IMG/VR virus record: IMGVR_UViG_2541047917_000003
Source of the DNA: a virus
Taxonomy: Duplodnaviria > Heunggongvirae > Uroviricota > Caudoviricetes
Strand: one strand, 5' to 3'
Length of the DNA: 45,350 bases
In this document: positions 18,814 to 22,327 of the stretch, piece after piece
How positions within the stretch are numbered: position 1 is the first letter of the stretch
Layout: every line of letters begins with the position of its first letter
Notes under the pieces: model-generated
The model's input: only the letters and a program-made list of their open reading frames with translations
Databases searched by the model: none
What the model was told of the DNA's origin: nothing
Position numbers and translations under genes: made by a program

Positions 18814-18990
18814 TGTTCATTCCACGGACAAAAACAGAGAAAGGAAACGACAGAGGCCAAAAAGCTCGCTTTCAGCACCTGTCGTTTCCTTTCTTTTCAG
18901 GGGGTATTTTAAATAAAAACATTAAGTTACGACGAAGAAGAACGGAAACACCTTAAACCGGAAAATTTTCATAAATAGCGAAAACCCGCG

Positions 18991-19201: not shown

Positions 19202-19435
19202 ATGTCAACGAAGAACAGAACCCGCAGAACAACAACCCGCAACATCCGCTTTCCTAACCAAATGATTGAACAAATTAACATCGCTCTTGTTCAAAAAGGG
19301 TCCGGGAATTTCTCAGCCTGGGTCATTGAAGCCTGCCGCCGGAGACTGTGCTCAGAAAAAAGAGTTTCGCCTGAAGCAAACAAAGAAAAGAGTGACATTA
19401 CTGAATTGCTCAGAAAACAGGTTAGACCAGATTGA
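19202..19435 (+). CDS. Small basic ribbon-helix-helix-like protein (hypothetical)
   Basis: 77-aa ORF; basic N-terminus then RNIRFPNQMIEQINIALVQKGSGNFSAWVIEACRRRL, a strand-helix-helix pattern typical of Arc/CopG-type RHH proteins; opposite strand to the packaging genes. Confidence 0.5.
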   Translation: MSTKNRTRRTTTRNIRFPNQMIEQINIALVQKGSGNFSAWVIEACRRRLCSEKRVSPEANKEKSDITELLRKQVRPD

Positions 19436-19492
19436 AGCAATCTAGATAATCGTGCAGACTACGCCCCCTCATATCACATGGAAGGTACTACA

Positions 19493-19903
19493 ATGGCTCA
19501 GGTTGCCATTTTTAAACAAATATTCGATAAAGTGCGAAATAATTTAAACTATCACTGGTTTTATTCTGAACTAAAACGTCACAATGTCTCACATTACATT
19601 TACTATTTAGCCACAGAGAATATTCATCTTGTTCTTGAAAACGATAATACGGTTTTAATAAAAGGACAGGGTAAGGTTGTAAATGTAAGATTTTCAAAAA
19701 ATAAATGCCTTATAGAAGCCACCTTAAAAGGATTCAAATCAGGAGAGTTATCATTTTACGAATACAGGAAAAATCTTGCTACAGCAGGGGTTTTCAGATG
19801 GATTACAAATATCCACGAAAACAAAAGGTATTACTATACCTTTGATAATTCATTACTCTTTACTGAGAACATTCAGAACACTACACAAATATTTCCGCAC
19901 TAA
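19493..19903 (+). CDS. DUF1398 family protein (YbcV-like)
   Basis: ORF 19478..19903; likely start [11 protein letters not shown] with SD ggaagg. Strong resemblance, from memory, to DLP12 YbcV (...[15 protein letters not shown]...[27 protein letters not shown]). AT-rich. Confidence 0.65.
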
Positions 19904-20473
19904 ATCATAACGTCCGGTTTCTTCCGTGCCAGAACCGGACTCGCTGGCATGATGAAATATGTGTACCCGGTAACCCCGGTGTGCATCGTTTTTGATTATT
20001 CCCGCACACTCGCGCAGAAGGAGTTCCCCGTCGGGCTACGGTCTCTGTTAATACGGGAATACGGCGACGATACAGCGCATGATGTGTCAGGCTTGAATAC
20101 CTTTATCCTTTAAAAGGGATATCAGTTAAGTTATCCCGTGTAGGGTATAAGCCATTATCAAAGCCACTCTGTAGGGAATGGCTTTTGTGATGGCATCACT
20201 TACTCTTTACGCTGCTATCCCACTCATCCCGGAATTTTGATGGGTTATTGAAACCTTCTGCTGACATAACAACTCCTTCAATGTTTGGCTGAAATTAGGA
20301 TGTCTTTCCATCAGTCCGCCACCACAAAGAATCCTTTTTGCCATAAGGCAGGAGGTTCATCTTTCAGTGGCTGCCGGTGTTATTTCCCCACTTACTGGCT
20401 TGGGTTGTTTCGTGGTACTGCCGTTAACTGGTGGCGCACAGATTTAGTTAAATCCGTTCTCGCCTGAACTATC

Positions 20474-20503
20474 TTTTACATACCCGGATTGTGGGGATGT
20501 AAA
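20474..20503. repeat. ~30-bp element TTTTACATACCCGGATTGTGGGGATGTAAA, one of a small repeat family
   Basis: Near-identical copy at 20922-20953 inside the KilA-N ORF (encodes ILHPSQSRYVKT); longer related hairpin-containing elements at ~20128-20195 and ~20481-20552 in the 700-bp non-coding stretch. Confidence 0.6.
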
Positions 20504-20612
20504 TCACGGTTTCATTATCAAGCCCACCCGTAGATGGGCTTTGTAATGGATAGCCGTTGCTCAGTTCTAGTAATGCTTTGATTTTTTCGATAACGCAGTT
20601 TTGCGTTTGCCA

Positions 20613-21134
20613 TCAGCACGCGATATCGAGAGTCAACTGCAGTTGCTCGCGCCAGTACTCAACATTTGCTTCAATAACCGGCTTATCCCATCGCCAGCGA
20701 GCCATCTCTCTTGCCCCATTGCTGGCTTTTGATTTCCGGTCATCGCGAATGCGACATGCTTGCTCATATTTCTGCTGCTCAGTCAGTTCACCGCGAAGCA
20801 GACTATCAATGTGCAGGTCGCACCACACAGCAAAACGAGCATCACACCAACGGGCAAATGCAACTGAAAGTTTTGGATGTAGCCACGTACCACCACCCCT
20901 GTCCTTTCGTGCCTTGCTGGTTTTTACATACCTCGATTGTGAGGGATGTAAAATTTGAGATTCTTTCCCGGTCAACGCTTCGTCTAAAGCACGAACGTAT
21001 TCAAGCGTTTCTGCCAAACGCATCCAGTTATCAATGCGTTTCCCAAATCTCTCAGCAACACCTGTGACGTTGATCCAACCATCAGTGTTGAAACTGACAA
21101 TTTCACCTTTGTAATTAAGTGGCACGATATTCAT
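20613..21134 (-). CDS. KilA-N domain protein
   Basis: 173-aa ORF; motif GGTWLHPKLSVAFARWCDARFAVWCD typical of the KilA-N DNA-binding domain; downstream of Rz. Confidence 0.7.
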   Translation of the reverse strand: MNIVPLNYKGEIVSFNTDGWINVTGVAERFGKRIDNWMRLAETLEYVRALDEALTGKESQILHPSQSRYVKTSKARKDRGGGTWLHPKLSVAFARWCDARFAVWCDLHIDSLLRGELTEQQKYEQACRIRDDRKSKASNGAREMARWRWDKPVIEANVEYWREQLQLTLDIAC

Positions 21135-21250
21135 AACGTTTACCTACCATTTGAAATGAACCTTTGCCGCACAGGAAACCAGCCCACCGAGGCTCGCCAG
21201 CACTAACTGGTATCCTCAAAGGCCCATTCCAAAGGGGCAGGTTCGGTGTA

Positions 21251-21307
21251 AAAAAAACATGCGTTGCGGTACGCATTTATTGCAAAAAAGCCCCGCATCG
21301 CGAGGCT
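21251..21307 (-). terminator. Two tandem intrinsic terminators downstream of Rz
   Basis: On the - strand: GCCTCGCGATGCGGGGC + TTTTTT (21284-21307) and ATGCGTACCGCAACGCAT + TTTTTTT (21251-21276). Confidence 0.6.
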
Positions 21308-21338: not shown

Positions 21339-21797
21339 TTATTTCAGACATTGCGTCCTGATGTACTCCTGCAGGTAGTTAACCTGCGCGGTTATCCTGT
21401 CGATTCCACTTCGGAGACGGTAATAATTGAGTTCAGCATCTGCTGTAAGTCTTGGGCTTTCTCCATCGCCCATGCCGCTGGCTCCGGTCGTTGACTTTGC
21501 ACAGGTGGCGGCGACTTGCAGGCGCTTACGCCCAGCAGAAACATCAGCACGGAGACTTTCGATAGTCGCGTTAGCATCAGCAAGCTCCTTTGTGTATCTT
21601 GCGTCGAGTTCTGCTACATCACGTTGACGCTTCCGCATGTCAGCGATGGTGGCGTTCGCCTTCTCCAGTTCACTGGCCTTGTTATCGCGCTGCTCTTTGT
21701 AGGCGATTGCGTTATCACGGTAATGATTAACAGCCCATGACAGGCAGACGATGATGCAGATAACCAGAGCATAAATAATCGCGGCGACTCTGCTCAC
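21339..21797 (-). CDS. Rz: Spanin inner-membrane subunit Rz (i-spanin)
   Basis: ORF 21339..21812; likely GTG start overlapping the R stop (GTGA), giving (M)[30 protein letters not shown]..., close to lambda Rz N-terminus; TM helix plus coiled coil. Confidence 0.85.
21392..21583 (-). CDS. Rz1: Spanin outer-membrane lipoprotein Rz1 (o-spanin), embedded in Rz
   Basis: 63-aa ORF in the +1 frame inside Rz; signal peptide with lipobox (LLGVSAC) and Pro-rich segment. Confidence 0.75.
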
Positions 21798-22327
21798 TGA
21801 TCTATCCCCCAACAGGCTAATGCGCTTTCCTGGTCACGACGAATAACCTGTCCATAGCAGTTATTTGAACGTATGCGGCAATCGCGCCCACCATCTTTTA
21901 TCCACCAGCGAATCGCCTCGCATGCACCTTTACGATCACCGGCATTCAGCCGCTTATAAAACGTCGACGGGAAACACTTACCGGGGCCAATGTTATAGGG
22001 ACAAAATGACGCGATACCCGCTTTCTGTGGTTCGGTCAGTGGCACTTTAATATTGCGCTCCACCCATGCCAGCGCCTTATCCCGTTCAATGGCGTTAACC
22101 TGGTCGCATTTTTCCTTCGACAGTTTCATACCGGGAAAAACGGGTTTTCCATCCACCACCGTGGCACCCCGACAGATGGTCCAGATGCCGGAACCATCGC
22201 GGTATGCCGTTGTGTGGTTACCTTCTTTTTCATCCAGAAACTGGTCGAGAATATCAGGCGCAGGCGCACCGACGGCAATCAGTGCCAGAACGGCAGCCGA
22301 CAGGCCGTATCTGATTTTTGCGTTCAT
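21794..22327 (-). CDS. R: SAR endolysin (GH24 lysozyme with signal-anchor-release N-terminus)
   Basis: 177-aa ORF; N-terminal hydrophobic segment [16 protein letters not shown] then T4-lysozyme-like catalytic region (EG.HTTAYRD.SG.WTIC.G); resembles Qin/phage-21-type lysozymes, not lambda R. Confidence 0.9.

What the first reader, a model, noticed from the sequence alone, without database searches (positions are those of the whole stretch)
19904..20612. 700-bp non-coding stretch with a family of repeated hairpin-containing elements, one copy of which recurs inside the KilA-N coding sequence
Seen: no ORF with a credible start fills 19904-20612. The stretch contains two related ~65-bp elements (~20128-20195 and ~20481-20552), each with a short stem-loop of the form AAGCC.C...GTAG..ATGG.CTT. 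The 30-bp segment TTTTACATACC.GGATTGTG.GGGATGTAAA (20474-20503) recurs at 20922-20953 inside the KilA-N ORF, where it encodes ILHPSQSRYVKT. Inference: these may be recombination scars from repeated module exchange, a duplicated gene fragment, or structured RNA or protein-binding elements.
Basis: seen in the sequence. Interest (0 to 1): 0.35.

Follow-up and report, generated by a model that had tools for sequence, protein, structure and literature searches.

The report
RNase III-like hairpins at phage junctions
The gap holds two copies of a conserved RNA hairpin found once or twice in the late operon of many lambdoid and P22-like phages, where gene cassettes have been swapped; it looks like the RNase III cutting signals of phage T7, but no cutting has been shown.

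Summary
Window 19904-20612 is an untranslated, mosaic stretch of a lambdoid prophage late operon, which runs on the minus strand.

It contains two copies (20151-20194 and 20513-20549) of a 37-41-nt hairpin family. The family has a 9-10-bp upper stem, a conserved small internal loop and a 5-6-bp lower stem. Both stems covary, and the B-type copies keep G:U pairs only on the late strand, so it is an RNA element.

The family occurs in at least 147 cultured phages and many viral contigs, all Enterobacterales, and matched no Rfam family. A stop codon abuts its 5' edge in 53 of 98 contexts. Its flanks are shuffled: 38 left types, 37 right types and 58 combinations. Every homology break in this window falls at an element edge.

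Models built from these hairpins and from T7 RNase III sites find each other. The hairpins share with T7 sites a lower stem and the lack of a U run, which separates both from terminators. RNase III cleavage itself is untested.

The 30-nt repeat near 20474-20503 is a separate thing: a roughly 60-nt fragment related to the KilA-N gene.

The parts
20513..20549 (-). Core hairpin B (late strand): CCAUUACA-AAGCCCAUC-UACG-GGUGGGCUU-GAUAAUG. It has a 9-bp upper stem, a 2x2 internal loop (CA/GA) and a 5-bp lower stem. By analogy with T7 R1 and R0.3, the predicted cut is ...CUUGAU|AAUG, between 20517 and 20516.
   Evidence: Model R1 scores 64.4 bits. Fold energy is -20.6 kcal/mol. The T7-derived model R2 has its top hit in the window here (17.6 bits). 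The element is shared as an isolated island by many phages.
20151..20194 (-). Core hairpin A (late strand): GCCAUCACA-AAAGCCAUUC-CCUACA-GAGUGGCUUU-GAUAAUGGC. Its upper stem is almost identical to that of T7 R1.1 (CAUUC...GAGUG). The predicted cut is ...CUUUGAU|AAUGG, between 20157 and 20156.
   Evidence: Model R1 scores 51.8 bits. Fold energy is -21.1 kcal/mol. Model R2 scores 16.4-16.6 bits. A diverged version in HK620, Chlobot and POCJ13 keeps both stems through compensatory changes.
20131..20150 (-). Small hairpin A'1: UUAUACCCUACACGGGAUAA, of the TTATCC-N8-GGATAA type.
   Evidence: Read directly from the sequence. In the loci, 136 of 170 same-strand matches to this motif lie within 60 nt downstream of a core.
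20103..20122 (-). Small hairpin A'2: AUAUCCCUUUUAAAGGAUAA. In P22-like phages it is followed directly by the ribosome-binding site and ATG of the next gene.
   Evidence: Homology with P22-like phages starts at 20102.
20196..20267 (-). A 23-codon ORF, MSAEGFNNPSKFRDEWDSSVKSK, with the Shine-Dalgarno site GAAGGAG at 20273-20279. It is the variable cassette in the slot 20195-20298 and ends 2 nt before core A.
   Evidence: Unannotated homologues of 52-61% identity occur in other E. coli, Enterobacter, Proteus, Salmonella and Cronobacter phages. Sf6 carries gene 66 in the same slot.
20299..20438 (-). Conserved non-coding block shared with HK620, Sf6, Stx2 phages and others. Its downstream edge (...GACAUC) is a junction followed by at least 5 alternative cassettes.
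   Evidence: The ORF that can be read in it is broken by frameshifts or stop codons in several phages.
20439..20503 (-). Segment related to KilA-N codons 61-80, carrying hairpin B' (20474-20503). The part 20439-20499 is a 61-nt indel absent from HK544.
20550..20612 (-). 3' untranslated tail of the KilA-N gene, inherited together with that gene.
   Evidence: HK544, ev099 and Emek share it together with KilA-N.
19904..20102 (.). Block shared with lambda-like phages that carry the DUF1398 gene (Chlobot, ev099, Stx phages). It contains a mechanical 54-codon plus-strand ORF (19949-20113) that two phage records annotate as hypothetical.
20922..20953 (-). Palindrome inside the KilA-N coding sequence (ILHPSQSRYVK). 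It is native coding sequence and the source or partner of B'.

Best explanation
The stretch is the untranslated, mosaic tail of the lysis and accessory part of a lambdoid late operon, transcribed on the minus strand.

Its repeated element is a structured RNA hairpin that marks the ends of gene cassettes. I propose that it is an RNase III processing signal of the phage T7 type. The upper stem carries the recognition determinants. The internal loop would limit cutting to the 3' strand, predicted at ...CUUGAU|AAUGG. The upstream mRNA would keep a protective 3' hairpin, and the downstream mRNA would gain a defined 5' end.

Because the 37-41-nt element is kept nearly identical in many otherwise unrelated phages, it is also the place where homologous or short-homology recombination joins different cassettes. 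That explains why homology breaks sit at its edges.

What is shown and what is inferred:
- Shown: the family, its structure, its strand, its position, the shuffling of its flanks, and its resemblance to T7 sites.
- Inferred: cleavage by RNase III, stabilisation of mRNA, and recombination within the element as the cause of the shuffling.

Confidence by layer: RNA hairpin on the late strand about 0.85; preferred junction about 0.8; RNase III substrate about 0.5.
For: Structure and strand:
- On 39 distinct cores, 98.5% of cells pair on the late strand. Six pairs change on both sides. None of 500 shuffles reaches the observed value, and slid controls give 30-51% pairing.
- U:G occurs at one position in 26 of 39 sequences.
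- B-type cores fold better on the late strand in 49 of 57 cases.
- The lower stem covaries: AUUAC..GAUAAU becomes AUUGC..GACAAU, and the internal loop CA/GA is kept.

Position:
- An ORF stop codon lies within 8 nt of the 5' edge in 53 of 98 contexts on the core strand, against 0 of 98 on the other strand. It abuts exactly in 34 of 108 contexts.
- The upstream genes are unrelated to each other: KilA-N, Rha, an 85-aa protein, and a tail tube protein with a Big_2 domain.
- The downstream genes are often the small terminase or a tail chaperone.

Distribution:
- There are 147 phage records, almost always with one copy per genome, and mostly unannotated.
- True hits occur only in Enterobacterales, apart from two short contigs labelled as other MAGs.
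- The window has exactly two copies.

Junctions:
- Homology breaks in the window fall at 20102, 20169/20191-3, 20294-9, 20433-8, 20500/20513 and 20548-52.
- ev099 has one hairpin where the window has A, 319 nt and B.
- There are 38 left and 37 right flank clusters in 58 combinations, and 82% of context pairs share only the core.

T7 link:
- Model R1, built from lambdoid cores only, finds the upper stems of T7 R1, R1.1, R1.3, R0.3, R0.5, R4.7 and R18.5 among its top hits in the 40-kb T7 genome. The best scores are 19.9 and 18.3 bits, with E of 2e-4 and 8e-4.
- The same model finds nothing better than 11 bits in lambda.
- Model R2, built from T7 sites only, puts its top four hits in this window on the two cores, and its top three hits in HK620 on that phage's cores.
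- Core A carries the published determinants. The distal box is U:A then U:G next to the loop-closing C:G. The proximal box is G:C, A:U, A:U, A:U (PMC1540722).
- Cores resemble T7 sites and differ from canonical terminators of the same phages. U count in the 8 nt after the stem is 2.2 for cores, 3.3 for T7 sites and 6.9 for terminators. Flank-to-flank lower-stem energy is -5.7, -5.2 and +0.8 kcal/mol respectively.
- Internal loops restrict RNase III to one cut that leaves a protective 3' hairpin (PMC1540722).
Against: - No cleavage or transcript-end data exist for these elements.
- The similarity to T7 sites lies mainly in the upper stem. The T7-derived model also hits ordinary intrinsic terminators in these phages with equal or higher scores, and R1 also hits the T7 TE terminator. 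The sequence similarity alone is therefore not specific to RNase III sites.
- E-values of the reciprocal hits are marginal (0.04-0.09) and the calibration is rough.
- The helix is short: about 17-18 stacked positions, against the roughly 22 bp typical of good substrates.
- B-type cores lack the U:A/U:G distal box of R1.1. They have U:G then A:U, as T7 R1 and R0.3 do.
- Many A-type copies have C:G in place of the U:G.
- A-type cores show no strand preference in folding energy.
- The core set was collected with a pattern that fixed the outer arms, so their invariance is partly by construction. The sequences are related to one another, which inflates shuffle-based significance.
- T7 cleavage coordinates other than R1.1 are from my memory of Dunn and Studier 1983.
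Confidence: 0.5

Rival explanations
1. The hairpins are leaky, possibly bidirectional, intrinsic terminators or plain 3'-end stabilisers. They would block 3' exonucleases or stop unmodified RNA polymerase in the lysogen, are read through by Q-modified polymerase, and have no RNase III involvement.
For: - The stem is GC-rich, with A-rich 5' and U-containing 3' flanks.
- The upper stems resemble true terminators of the same phages and the T7 TE terminator.
- In this window the region lies between convergent genes.
- The phage L paper notes that intra-operon terminators of unknown role exist in P22-like late operons (PMC8022706).
Against: - There is no U run. Cores have 2.2 U in the 8 nt after the stem, against 6.9 for real terminators, and the terminator scan does not call them.
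- A conserved, covarying lower stem and a conserved internal loop are not features of terminators.
- In many contexts the core sits immediately after a strong canonical terminator (...GGGGCUUUUUAUUG|CCAUUAC), which would make a second terminator redundant.
Confidence: 0.25
2. The element works at the DNA level. It would be either a recombination 'linker' (a boundary sequence in the sense of Susskind and Botstein, and of Clark et al.) with no RNA function, or a palindromic binding site or folded single-strand site for a recombinase or other protein.
For: - The sequence is palindromic.
- Flanks are shuffled in many combinations and homology breaks fall at its edges.
- The idea of short conserved boundary sequences exists in the literature (PMC3029335).
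- The small TTATCC-N8-GGATAA hairpins keep their stem sequence rather than covarying, which suits a protein-binding site.
Against: - The inner and outer stems change by compensatory substitutions while pairing is kept, and in B-type cores G:U pairs are tolerated on one strand only.
- Orientation is strictly tied to gene direction, 53 against 0. A pure DNA linker need not be oriented.
- No recombinase gene is consistently adjacent.
Confidence: 0.12
3. The repeats are only decayed gene remnants or scars of past illegitimate recombination, with no function.
For: This is true for one component. B' (20474-20503) with its flanks is related to KilA-N codons 61-80 and lies in a 61-nt indel. The ORF readable in block 20299-20438 is broken in several phages.
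Against: - The cores are conserved as isolated 37-41-nt islands between unrelated flanks in well over 100 phages.
- They show compensatory changes.
- They have no coding counterpart.
Confidence: 0.05
4. The stretch encodes one or more small regulatory RNAs whose terminators are the hairpins.
For: The stretch has stable hairpins and a 140-nt conserved non-coding block (20299-20438), also present in Stx phages, where prophage small RNAs are common.
Against: - There is no Rfam match at E up to 1.
- No promoter-like site lies near the cores. The only one inside the stretch is a weak 9-of-12 match on the minus strand at 19932-19904.
- The hairpins lack U tails.
- The cores occur in many contexts with a stop codon on one side and a ribosome-binding site on the other, leaving no room for a small RNA gene.
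Confidence: 0.05

Closest known systems
Phage T7 RNase III processing signals (R0.3, R0.5, R1, R1.1, R1.3, R4.7, R18.5; the R1.1 model substrate)
   Same: - Both lie between cistrons on the transcribed strand.
- Both have a 9-10-bp upper stem that begins AAG.../...CUU and is capped by a 4-6-nt loop, then an internal loop, then an AU-rich lower stem.
- Neither has a U run.
- The upper stems are nearly identical: T7 R1.1 AAGGUCAUUC..GAGUGGCCUU against core A AAAGCCAUUC..GAGUGGCUUU, and T7 R1 AGGUCAUCUGCGGGUGGCCU against core B AGCCCAUCUACGGGUGGGCU.
- The 3' flanks are similar: UAUGAUAUU against (U)GAUAAUGG.
- Covariance models built from each set find the other.
   Different: - The lambdoid elements are in temperate lambdoid and P22-like phages, in the Q-dependent late operon.
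- The lower stem is shorter (5-6 bp) and has a different, conserved sequence (CCAUUA/UAAUGG).
- The internal loop is small and symmetric (2x2 in B) rather than 4/5 nt.
- The upstream stop codon often abuts the element.
- Cleavage has not been shown.
'Boundary sequences' or linkers at module junctions of lambdoid phages (Susskind and Botstein 1978; Clark et al. 2001, as cited in PMC3029335)
   Same: Both are short conserved sequences found between exchangeable modules, and homology breaks coincide with them.
   Different: - The Sf6 record annotates a boundary sequence (bsq7) inside Rz, not at these hairpins, and the HK620 record annotates nothing here. I could not read the 2001 paper.
- Here the element has its own RNA-level constraint, which would explain why a linker is conserved at all.
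Intra-operon rho-independent terminators of P22-like late operons (phage L genome paper, PMC8022706)
   Same: Both are GC-rich hairpins inside the late operon at module ends, with role stated as unknown.
   Different: The cores lack the U tract and have a lower stem. True terminators of that kind occur separately in the same loci.
REP/BIME intergenic palindromes of enterobacterial chromosomes
   Same: Both are imperfect palindromes downstream of genes that can protect mRNA 3' ends.
   Different: The cores are not dispersed. There are one or two copies per phage genome, none in the two K-12 prophage regions examined (DLP12 and Qin), and only about 30 true hits in 185,579 species genomes. The sequence is also different.
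Integron attC sites
   Same: Both are imperfect hairpins directly after the stop codon of each exchangeable cassette, with conserved outer arms and a variable centre.
   Different: There is no integron integrase nearby and no R''/R' core sites (RYYYAAC/GTTRRRY). The evidence here points to RNA rather than folded single-stranded DNA. The resemblance is one of layout only.

Membership tests
T7-type RNase III processing signal | A hairpin on the transcribed strand, between cistrons. | tested here: met
   Both copies are on the late (minus) strand. An ORF stop abuts the core in 53 of 98 contexts on that strand and 0 of 98 on the other. A ribosome-binding site and ATG often follow directly.
T7-type RNase III processing signal | An upper stem of about 10 bp, an internal loop and a lower stem that together give roughly two helical turns. 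| tested here: inconclusive
   The upper stem is 9-10 bp, the loop is 2x2 (B) or about 4x4 (A), and the lower stem is 5-6 bp, giving 17-18 stacked positions. T7 R1 has comparable geometry: 9 bp, a 2/3 loop, then 5+4 bp. This is shorter than the roughly 22 bp quoted for full contacts (PMC1540722).
T7-type RNase III processing signal | Proximal-box determinants: G:C, then A:U or U:A, then A:U, and no G:C at position 4. | tested here: met
   Both window copies carry G:C, A:U, A:U at the base of the upper stem, followed by A:U in core A and an A.G mismatch in core B. In the 39-sequence alignment the two basal A:U pairs are invariant and the third pair is G:C in 30 and A:U in 9.
T7-type RNase III processing signal | Distal box U:A then U:G next to the loop. 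| tested here: inconclusive
   Met in core A of this window and in the HK620-type, L066-type and L075-type variants (CAUUC..GAGUG). Many A-type copies have C:G instead of U:G. B-type copies have U:G then A:U, as in the natural T7 sites R1 and R0.3.
T7-type RNase III processing signal | Sequence and structure similarity to the T7 sites. | tested here: met
   Reciprocal covariance-model hits, with lambda as a negative control. Caveat: the same model also hits terminators. Cores separate from terminators by U count and lower stem.
T7-type RNase III processing signal | Cleavage by RNase III in vivo or in vitro. | not testable with these tools
   No transcript-end data were available, and the literature search found nothing.
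Rho-independent terminator | A GC-rich stem-loop followed directly by a U run. | tested here: not met
   The terminator scan does not call the cores. Cores have 2.2 U in the 8 nt after the stem, against 6.9 for 15 canonical terminators from the same loci.
Boundary sequence / recombination linker | A short sequence conserved between phages whose flanks are unrelated, with homology breaks at its edges. | tested here: met
   82% of context pairs share only the core, and there are 58 flank combinations. Whether recombination occurs within the element has not been tested.
Any Rfam family | A match to a curated covariance model. | tested here: not met
   No hit lies within 19904-20612 at E up to 1.
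KilA-N gene remnant (for B' only) | Sequence homology to a KilA-N coding segment beyond the palindrome itself. | tested here: met
   An alignment of about 55 nt, with the Sf6 copy 97% identical over 30 nt to the window's KilA-N segment. The KilA-N segment is native, since it aligns with Pseudomonas homologues.

The most novel reading that the evidence does not exclude
These hairpins are true RNase III processing signals of the T7 type that lambdoid and P22-like phages use to punctuate the long late transcript at module ends. Because selection on RNA function keeps a 37-41-nt sequence nearly identical across otherwise unrelated phages, the same element would serve as the homology patch through which Red, Erf or RecT-type recombinases swap cassettes. 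That would make it a functionally maintained 'linker' and give the old boundary-sequence model a concrete, testable case.
Probability: 0.3. Interest if true: 0.7.

Novelty: new member of a known kind. Interest (0 to 1): 0.5.

Why it matters
Two things would follow if the reading is right.

First, the roles of hairpins and 'terminators' inside lambdoid late operons are openly described as unknown (PMC8022706). A conserved processing signal at cassette ends would explain how a 20-kb-plus late transcript is cut into segments with different stabilities. It would also extend T7-style RNase III punctuation to temperate phages, including Stx-converting phages and common E. coli and Salmonella prophages.

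Second, it bears on how phage mosaics arise. Short conserved boundary sequences are said not to be identifiable at most junctions (PMC3029335). Here is one that is found in over a hundred phages, is about the length that I recall Red-type recombination needs, and is kept by an independent selective constraint.

In practice, the element is a useful landmark for annotating module borders, and it is unannotated in nearly all records.

Tried and rejected
- **Rfam:** nothing in the stretch. The only hits were weak miRNA-model matches to the palindrome just upstream of the Nu1 start, at 18833-18899.
- **Promoter and terminator scan:** no site at the cores.
- **Strict palindrome pattern in the window:** found nothing, because the loop lengths differ between copies.
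- **HK620 and Sf6 records:** I looked for an annotated boundary sequence at these positions and found none.
- **Literature search for the sequence itself:** only unrelated primer matches.
- **Literature searches linking RNase III to lambdoid or P22 late operons:** nothing. A search for a table of T7 R-site coordinates also found nothing.
- **K-12 DLP12 and Qin late regions:** no copy, so K-12 RNase III maps cannot help.
- **The 21- and 54-codon ORF in block 20299-20438:** rejected as a gene because of frameshifts and stops in other phages.
- **Sites compared by eye with no convincing match:** Fur box, IHF site, DnaA box, CsrA site and sigma-70 promoter readings of the arms and the small hairpins.
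- **Integron-like and REP-like readings:** rejected because there is no integrase and the elements are not dispersed.
- **Taking the T7-model hits as specific proof:** rejected after the same model hit ordinary terminators. I replaced that argument with the three-way feature comparison.
Full report
**Setting**

The window is a lambdoid prophage of E. coli, and its late operon runs on the minus strand. The order is endolysin (21794-22327), Rz (21339-21812), a KilA-N gene (20613-21134), then the 709-nt gap. After the gap come two plus-strand genes (DUF1398, 19478-19903, and YlcI, 19202-19435), and then Nu1 and terminase. RefSeq annotates nothing in the gap in a 99.9%-identical prophage. Parts of the gap occur in 3535 of 5426 complete E. 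coli genomes, but only 65 carry at least 80% of it. No cultured phage carries at least 80% of it either. The stretch is therefore a mosaic.

**Checking the observation**

The two related elements are imperfect palindromes at 20151-20194 and 20513-20549. Both fold well beyond shuffled controls (z of -4.1 to -4.9). The 30-nt repeat 20474-20503 versus 20922-20953 is real. Two further small hairpins (20131-20150 and 20103-20122) and a 23-codon ORF with a strong Shine-Dalgarno site (20196..20267, minus strand) were missed.

**Anatomy from comparison**

I ran a local BLAST of 19801-21200 against nine annotated relatives: HK544, Sf6, HK620, Chlobot, ev099, Emek, two Stx-type phages and an E. coli prophage. 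Homology breaks at only a few places: 20102, 20169/20191-20193, 20294-20299, 20433-20438, 20500/20513 and 20548-20552. Each of these is an edge of one of the elements listed under 'parts'.

- ev099 runs from 20193 straight to 20513 through a single hairpin. The 319 nt between copies A and B are absent there.
- HK544 lacks 20439-20499.
- Sf6 has its gene 66 where the window has the 23-codon ORF.
- Many phages share nothing with 20440-20612 except 20513-20548, give or take about 13 nt.
- In annotated phages this island sits just after the last gene that follows Rz. That gene may be KilA-N, Rha, hkbL-like or something else.

**The hairpin family**

Across all loci there were 140 instances, 42 distinct cores and 108 distinct flank contexts.

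Read on the late strand, the element is CCAUYAC(A)-AAG...[loop]...CUU-GAUAAUGG. On an alignment of 39 distinct cores, the proposed structure pairs 98.5% of cells. Six pairs change on both sides, and none of 500 shuffles reaches the observed score. Sliding the partners drops pairing to 30-51%.

U:G pairs are frequent; one position is U:G in 26 of 39 sequences. These would be A:C mismatches on the other strand. B-type cores fold better on the late strand in 49 of 57 cases, while A-type cores show no preference.

More diverged copies found with a covariance model have wholly different upper stems, such as CAGGCAUUC..GAGUGCCUG and GGGCGGU..ACUGCCC. The HK620, Chlobot and POCJ13 version of copy A changes the lower stem from AUUAC/GAUAAU to AUUGC/GACAAU while keeping the internal loop CA/GA.

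Caveats: the collection pattern fixed the outer arms, the sequences are related to one another, and model-based alignments lean towards the model's structure.

**Position and distribution**

- A stop codon of an ORF of at least 40 codons ends within 8 nt of the 5' edge in 53 of 98 contexts on the core strand, and in 0 of 98 on the other strand. It abuts exactly in 34 of 108 contexts.
- The upstream genes are unrelated: KilA-N, Rha, an 85-aa protein, a tail tube protein with a Big_2 domain, a 149-aa protein with hydrophobic stretches, and small proteins.
- The downstream genes include DUF2560-like proteins, by annotation of a similar Emek gene, and what look from their N-terminal sequences like several small-terminase types, tail assembly chaperones and HNH proteins. 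The ribosome-binding site often follows the element directly.
- The window has exactly two copies. HK620 has one strong and one diverged copy. Lambda and the two K-12 prophage regions examined have none.
- Core B is in 147 phage records (148 places) and is almost never annotated.
- In one genome per species, true hits are confined to Enterobacterales: Enterobacter, Leclercia, Siccibacter, Pantoea, Kluyvera, Yokenella, Shigella and E. coli. Two short contigs labelled as other MAGs are the exception. The remaining matches are chance hits to the arms.
- Rfam has no match.

**Shuffling**

The 108 contexts fall into 38 left-flank and 37 right-flank clusters, in 58 combinations. In 82% of context pairs only the core is shared. 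Ten left clusters have two or more right partners (up to 5), and ten right clusters have two or more left partners (up to 10). The core is thus a shared island at which different cassettes are joined. The set was selected for carrying a core, so this shows combinatorial joining at the core. It does not show that cores are richer in breakpoints than other sites.

**Mechanism: the T7 lead**

The upper stem of copy A (AAAGCCAUUC..GAGUGGCUUU) is almost that of the T7 R1.1 RNase III substrate (AAGGUCAUUC..GAGUGGCCUU), with one compensatory pair. Copy B (AGCCCAUCUACGGGUGGGCU) is close to T7 R1 (AGGUCAUCUGCGGGUGGCCU).

I tested this in both directions.

- The model built only from lambdoid cores, run on the whole T7 genome without filters, returns as top hits, all on the transcribed strand, the hairpins in front of genes 1, 1.1, 1.3, 0.3, 0.5 and 4.7. 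The one before 18.5 is hit too, but as a degenerate plus-strand match and a minus-strand match. Each of the six hit ends 3-4 nt before the cleavage position I recall from Dunn and Studier 1983.
- The location of R1.1 and its 47 + 13-nt cleavage products are confirmed by PMC6121014.
- The same model finds nothing above 11 bits in lambda.
- Conversely, a model built only from seven T7 sites puts its four best hits in this 45-kb window on the two cores. Its three best hits in HK620 fall on that phage's cores.

[quoted passage not shown] Copy A meets them, and copy B meets them in the form seen in T7 R1 and R0.3. Internal loops are known to restrict cutting to one strand and to leave a protective 3' hairpin. 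Counting from the loop as in T7 gives a predicted cut at ...CUUGAU|AAUGG in both copies.

**A necessary correction**

Across 1 Mb of lambdoid loci, the T7-derived model also hits ordinary intrinsic terminators (AAGGCUGCC..GGUGGCCUUUUUUAUU), with equal or better scores. The lambdoid model also hits the T7 TE terminator. The sequence similarity therefore belongs to a hairpin class shared by terminators and T7 RNase III sites.

What separates the classes is the 3' tail and the lower stem:

| Class | U in the 8 nt after the stem | Flank-to-flank duplex energy (kcal/mol) | Pairs |
|---|---|---|---|
| Canonical terminators | 6.9 | +0.8 | 2.6 |
| T7 RNase III sites | 3.3 | -5.2 | 7.9 |
| Lambdoid cores | 2.2 | -5.7 | 6.8 |

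On both features the cores group with the T7 sites. Many cores also lie directly after a strong terminator, which argues against a terminator role for the core itself. I therefore rate an RNase III-type processing signal at about 0.5, and a plain stabiliser or leaky terminator at about 0.25. The two are not exclusive.

**The KilA-N repeat**

B' (20474-20503) lies in the 61-nt indel. Together with about 25 nt downstream, it aligns with KilA-N codons 61-80. The Sf6 copy is 97% identical over 30 nt to the window's KilA-N segment. In the loci the motif occurs only in these two contexts. The KilA-N segment ILHPSQSRYVKT aligns with ILDTRNSGYVKT in Pseudomonas homologues, so it is native coding sequence. 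B' is best read as a short KilA-N-derived fragment, or as a gene-conversion partner. An oddity is listed under 'noticed in passing': the Salmonella-type allele has a different but equally good palindrome at the same codons.

**Other components**

- Block 20299-20438 is conserved and non-coding. Its only ORF is broken in several phages. It ends at a junction followed by at least five alternative cassettes.
- The 23-codon ORF has diverged, unannotated homologues in other phages and is probably a real small gene.
- The small TTATCC-N8-GGATAA hairpins almost always follow a core. They keep their stem sequence rather than covarying, and they show no late-strand preference. Their role is open.

**Novelty**

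I found no description of this element in Rfam, in the annotated records, or in the searchable literature. The concept of boundary sequences exists, and intra-operon hairpins of unknown role have been noted. I could not read Clark et al. 2001, so prior mention there cannot be excluded.

I file the element as a new member of a known kind: an RNase III-type or terminator-like intercistronic hairpin that also serves as a recombination junction. Cleavage is untested.

Noticed in passing
window 20922-20953 (minus strand, inside KilA-N); L110 homologous codons: The KilA-N coding sequence carries a palindrome at codons 61-71 in two alleles. The E. coli type is UUUUACAUCCCUC..GAGGUAUGUAAAA, encoding ILHPSQSRYVK. 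The Salmonella type is CUACAUACCCG-UGAUUC-CGGGUAUGUA, encoding ILHTRDSGYVK. The stem differs by paired substitutions that change the amino acids of a variable loop. This suggests selection on a hairpin inside the gene, or repeated conversion with the intergenic copy.
   Followed up: partly
window 20196-20267 (minus strand); Shine-Dalgarno site 20273-20279: An unannotated 23-codon ORF, MSAEGFNNPSKFRDEWDSSVKSK, has a strong GAAGGAG site. It has homologues of 52-61% identity in other E. coli, Enterobacter, Proteus, Salmonella and Cronobacter phages, and a 27-codon relative in L093 that also ends at a core hairpin. In one contig (L024) it is fused in frame to 21 upstream codons (CAA instead of TAA).
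   Followed up: partly
window 20103-20122 and 20131-20150; many loci: Pairs of 20-nt palindromes of the form TTATCC(CC)-N4-8-(GG)GGATAA follow the core hairpin within 60 nt in most contexts and often end at the ribosome-binding site of the next gene. Some copies look by eye like lambda operator sequences (for example TATCACCACCAGGGGATA against OR1 and OR3). I did not test this.
   Followed up: partly
window 20299-20438: A 140-nt non-coding block is conserved at about 94-97% in HK544, HK620, Sf6, Chlobot, Stx2-type and other phages. Its downstream edge is a sharp junction (...GACAUC) followed by at least five different cassettes. It contains a plus-strand terminator-like hairpin at 20334-20355.
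   Followed up: partly
window 21259-21276 (minus strand): A canonical terminator, a 6-bp stem followed by a run of eight U, lies between Rz and KilA-N. The matching intergenic hairpin is annotated as a rho-independent terminator in HK544 and Emek. The KilA-N cassette is thus bracketed by a true terminator upstream and a core hairpin downstream.
   Followed up: no
L057 10241-10272 and L079 8586-8617: Another hairpin with no U run, UAUCAGGCCACC-GCGG-UGGCCUGACUGAU, lies 5 nt after an ORF and 20 nt before a 342-codon ORF. The T7-derived model picks it up, so it may be a second RNase III-like family in lambdoid structural operons.
   Followed up: no
L030 1236-1857; L066 12266-12609; L043 7040-7685; L075 3906-4523: Some viral contigs carry two or three core hairpins, including diverged ones, within about 600 nt. 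The layout looks like a short array of cassettes, each ending in a hairpin.
   Followed up: no
window 18833-18899: A long palindrome just upstream of the Nu1 start gives weak false matches to miRNA models in Rfam. I did not examine it further.
   Followed up: no
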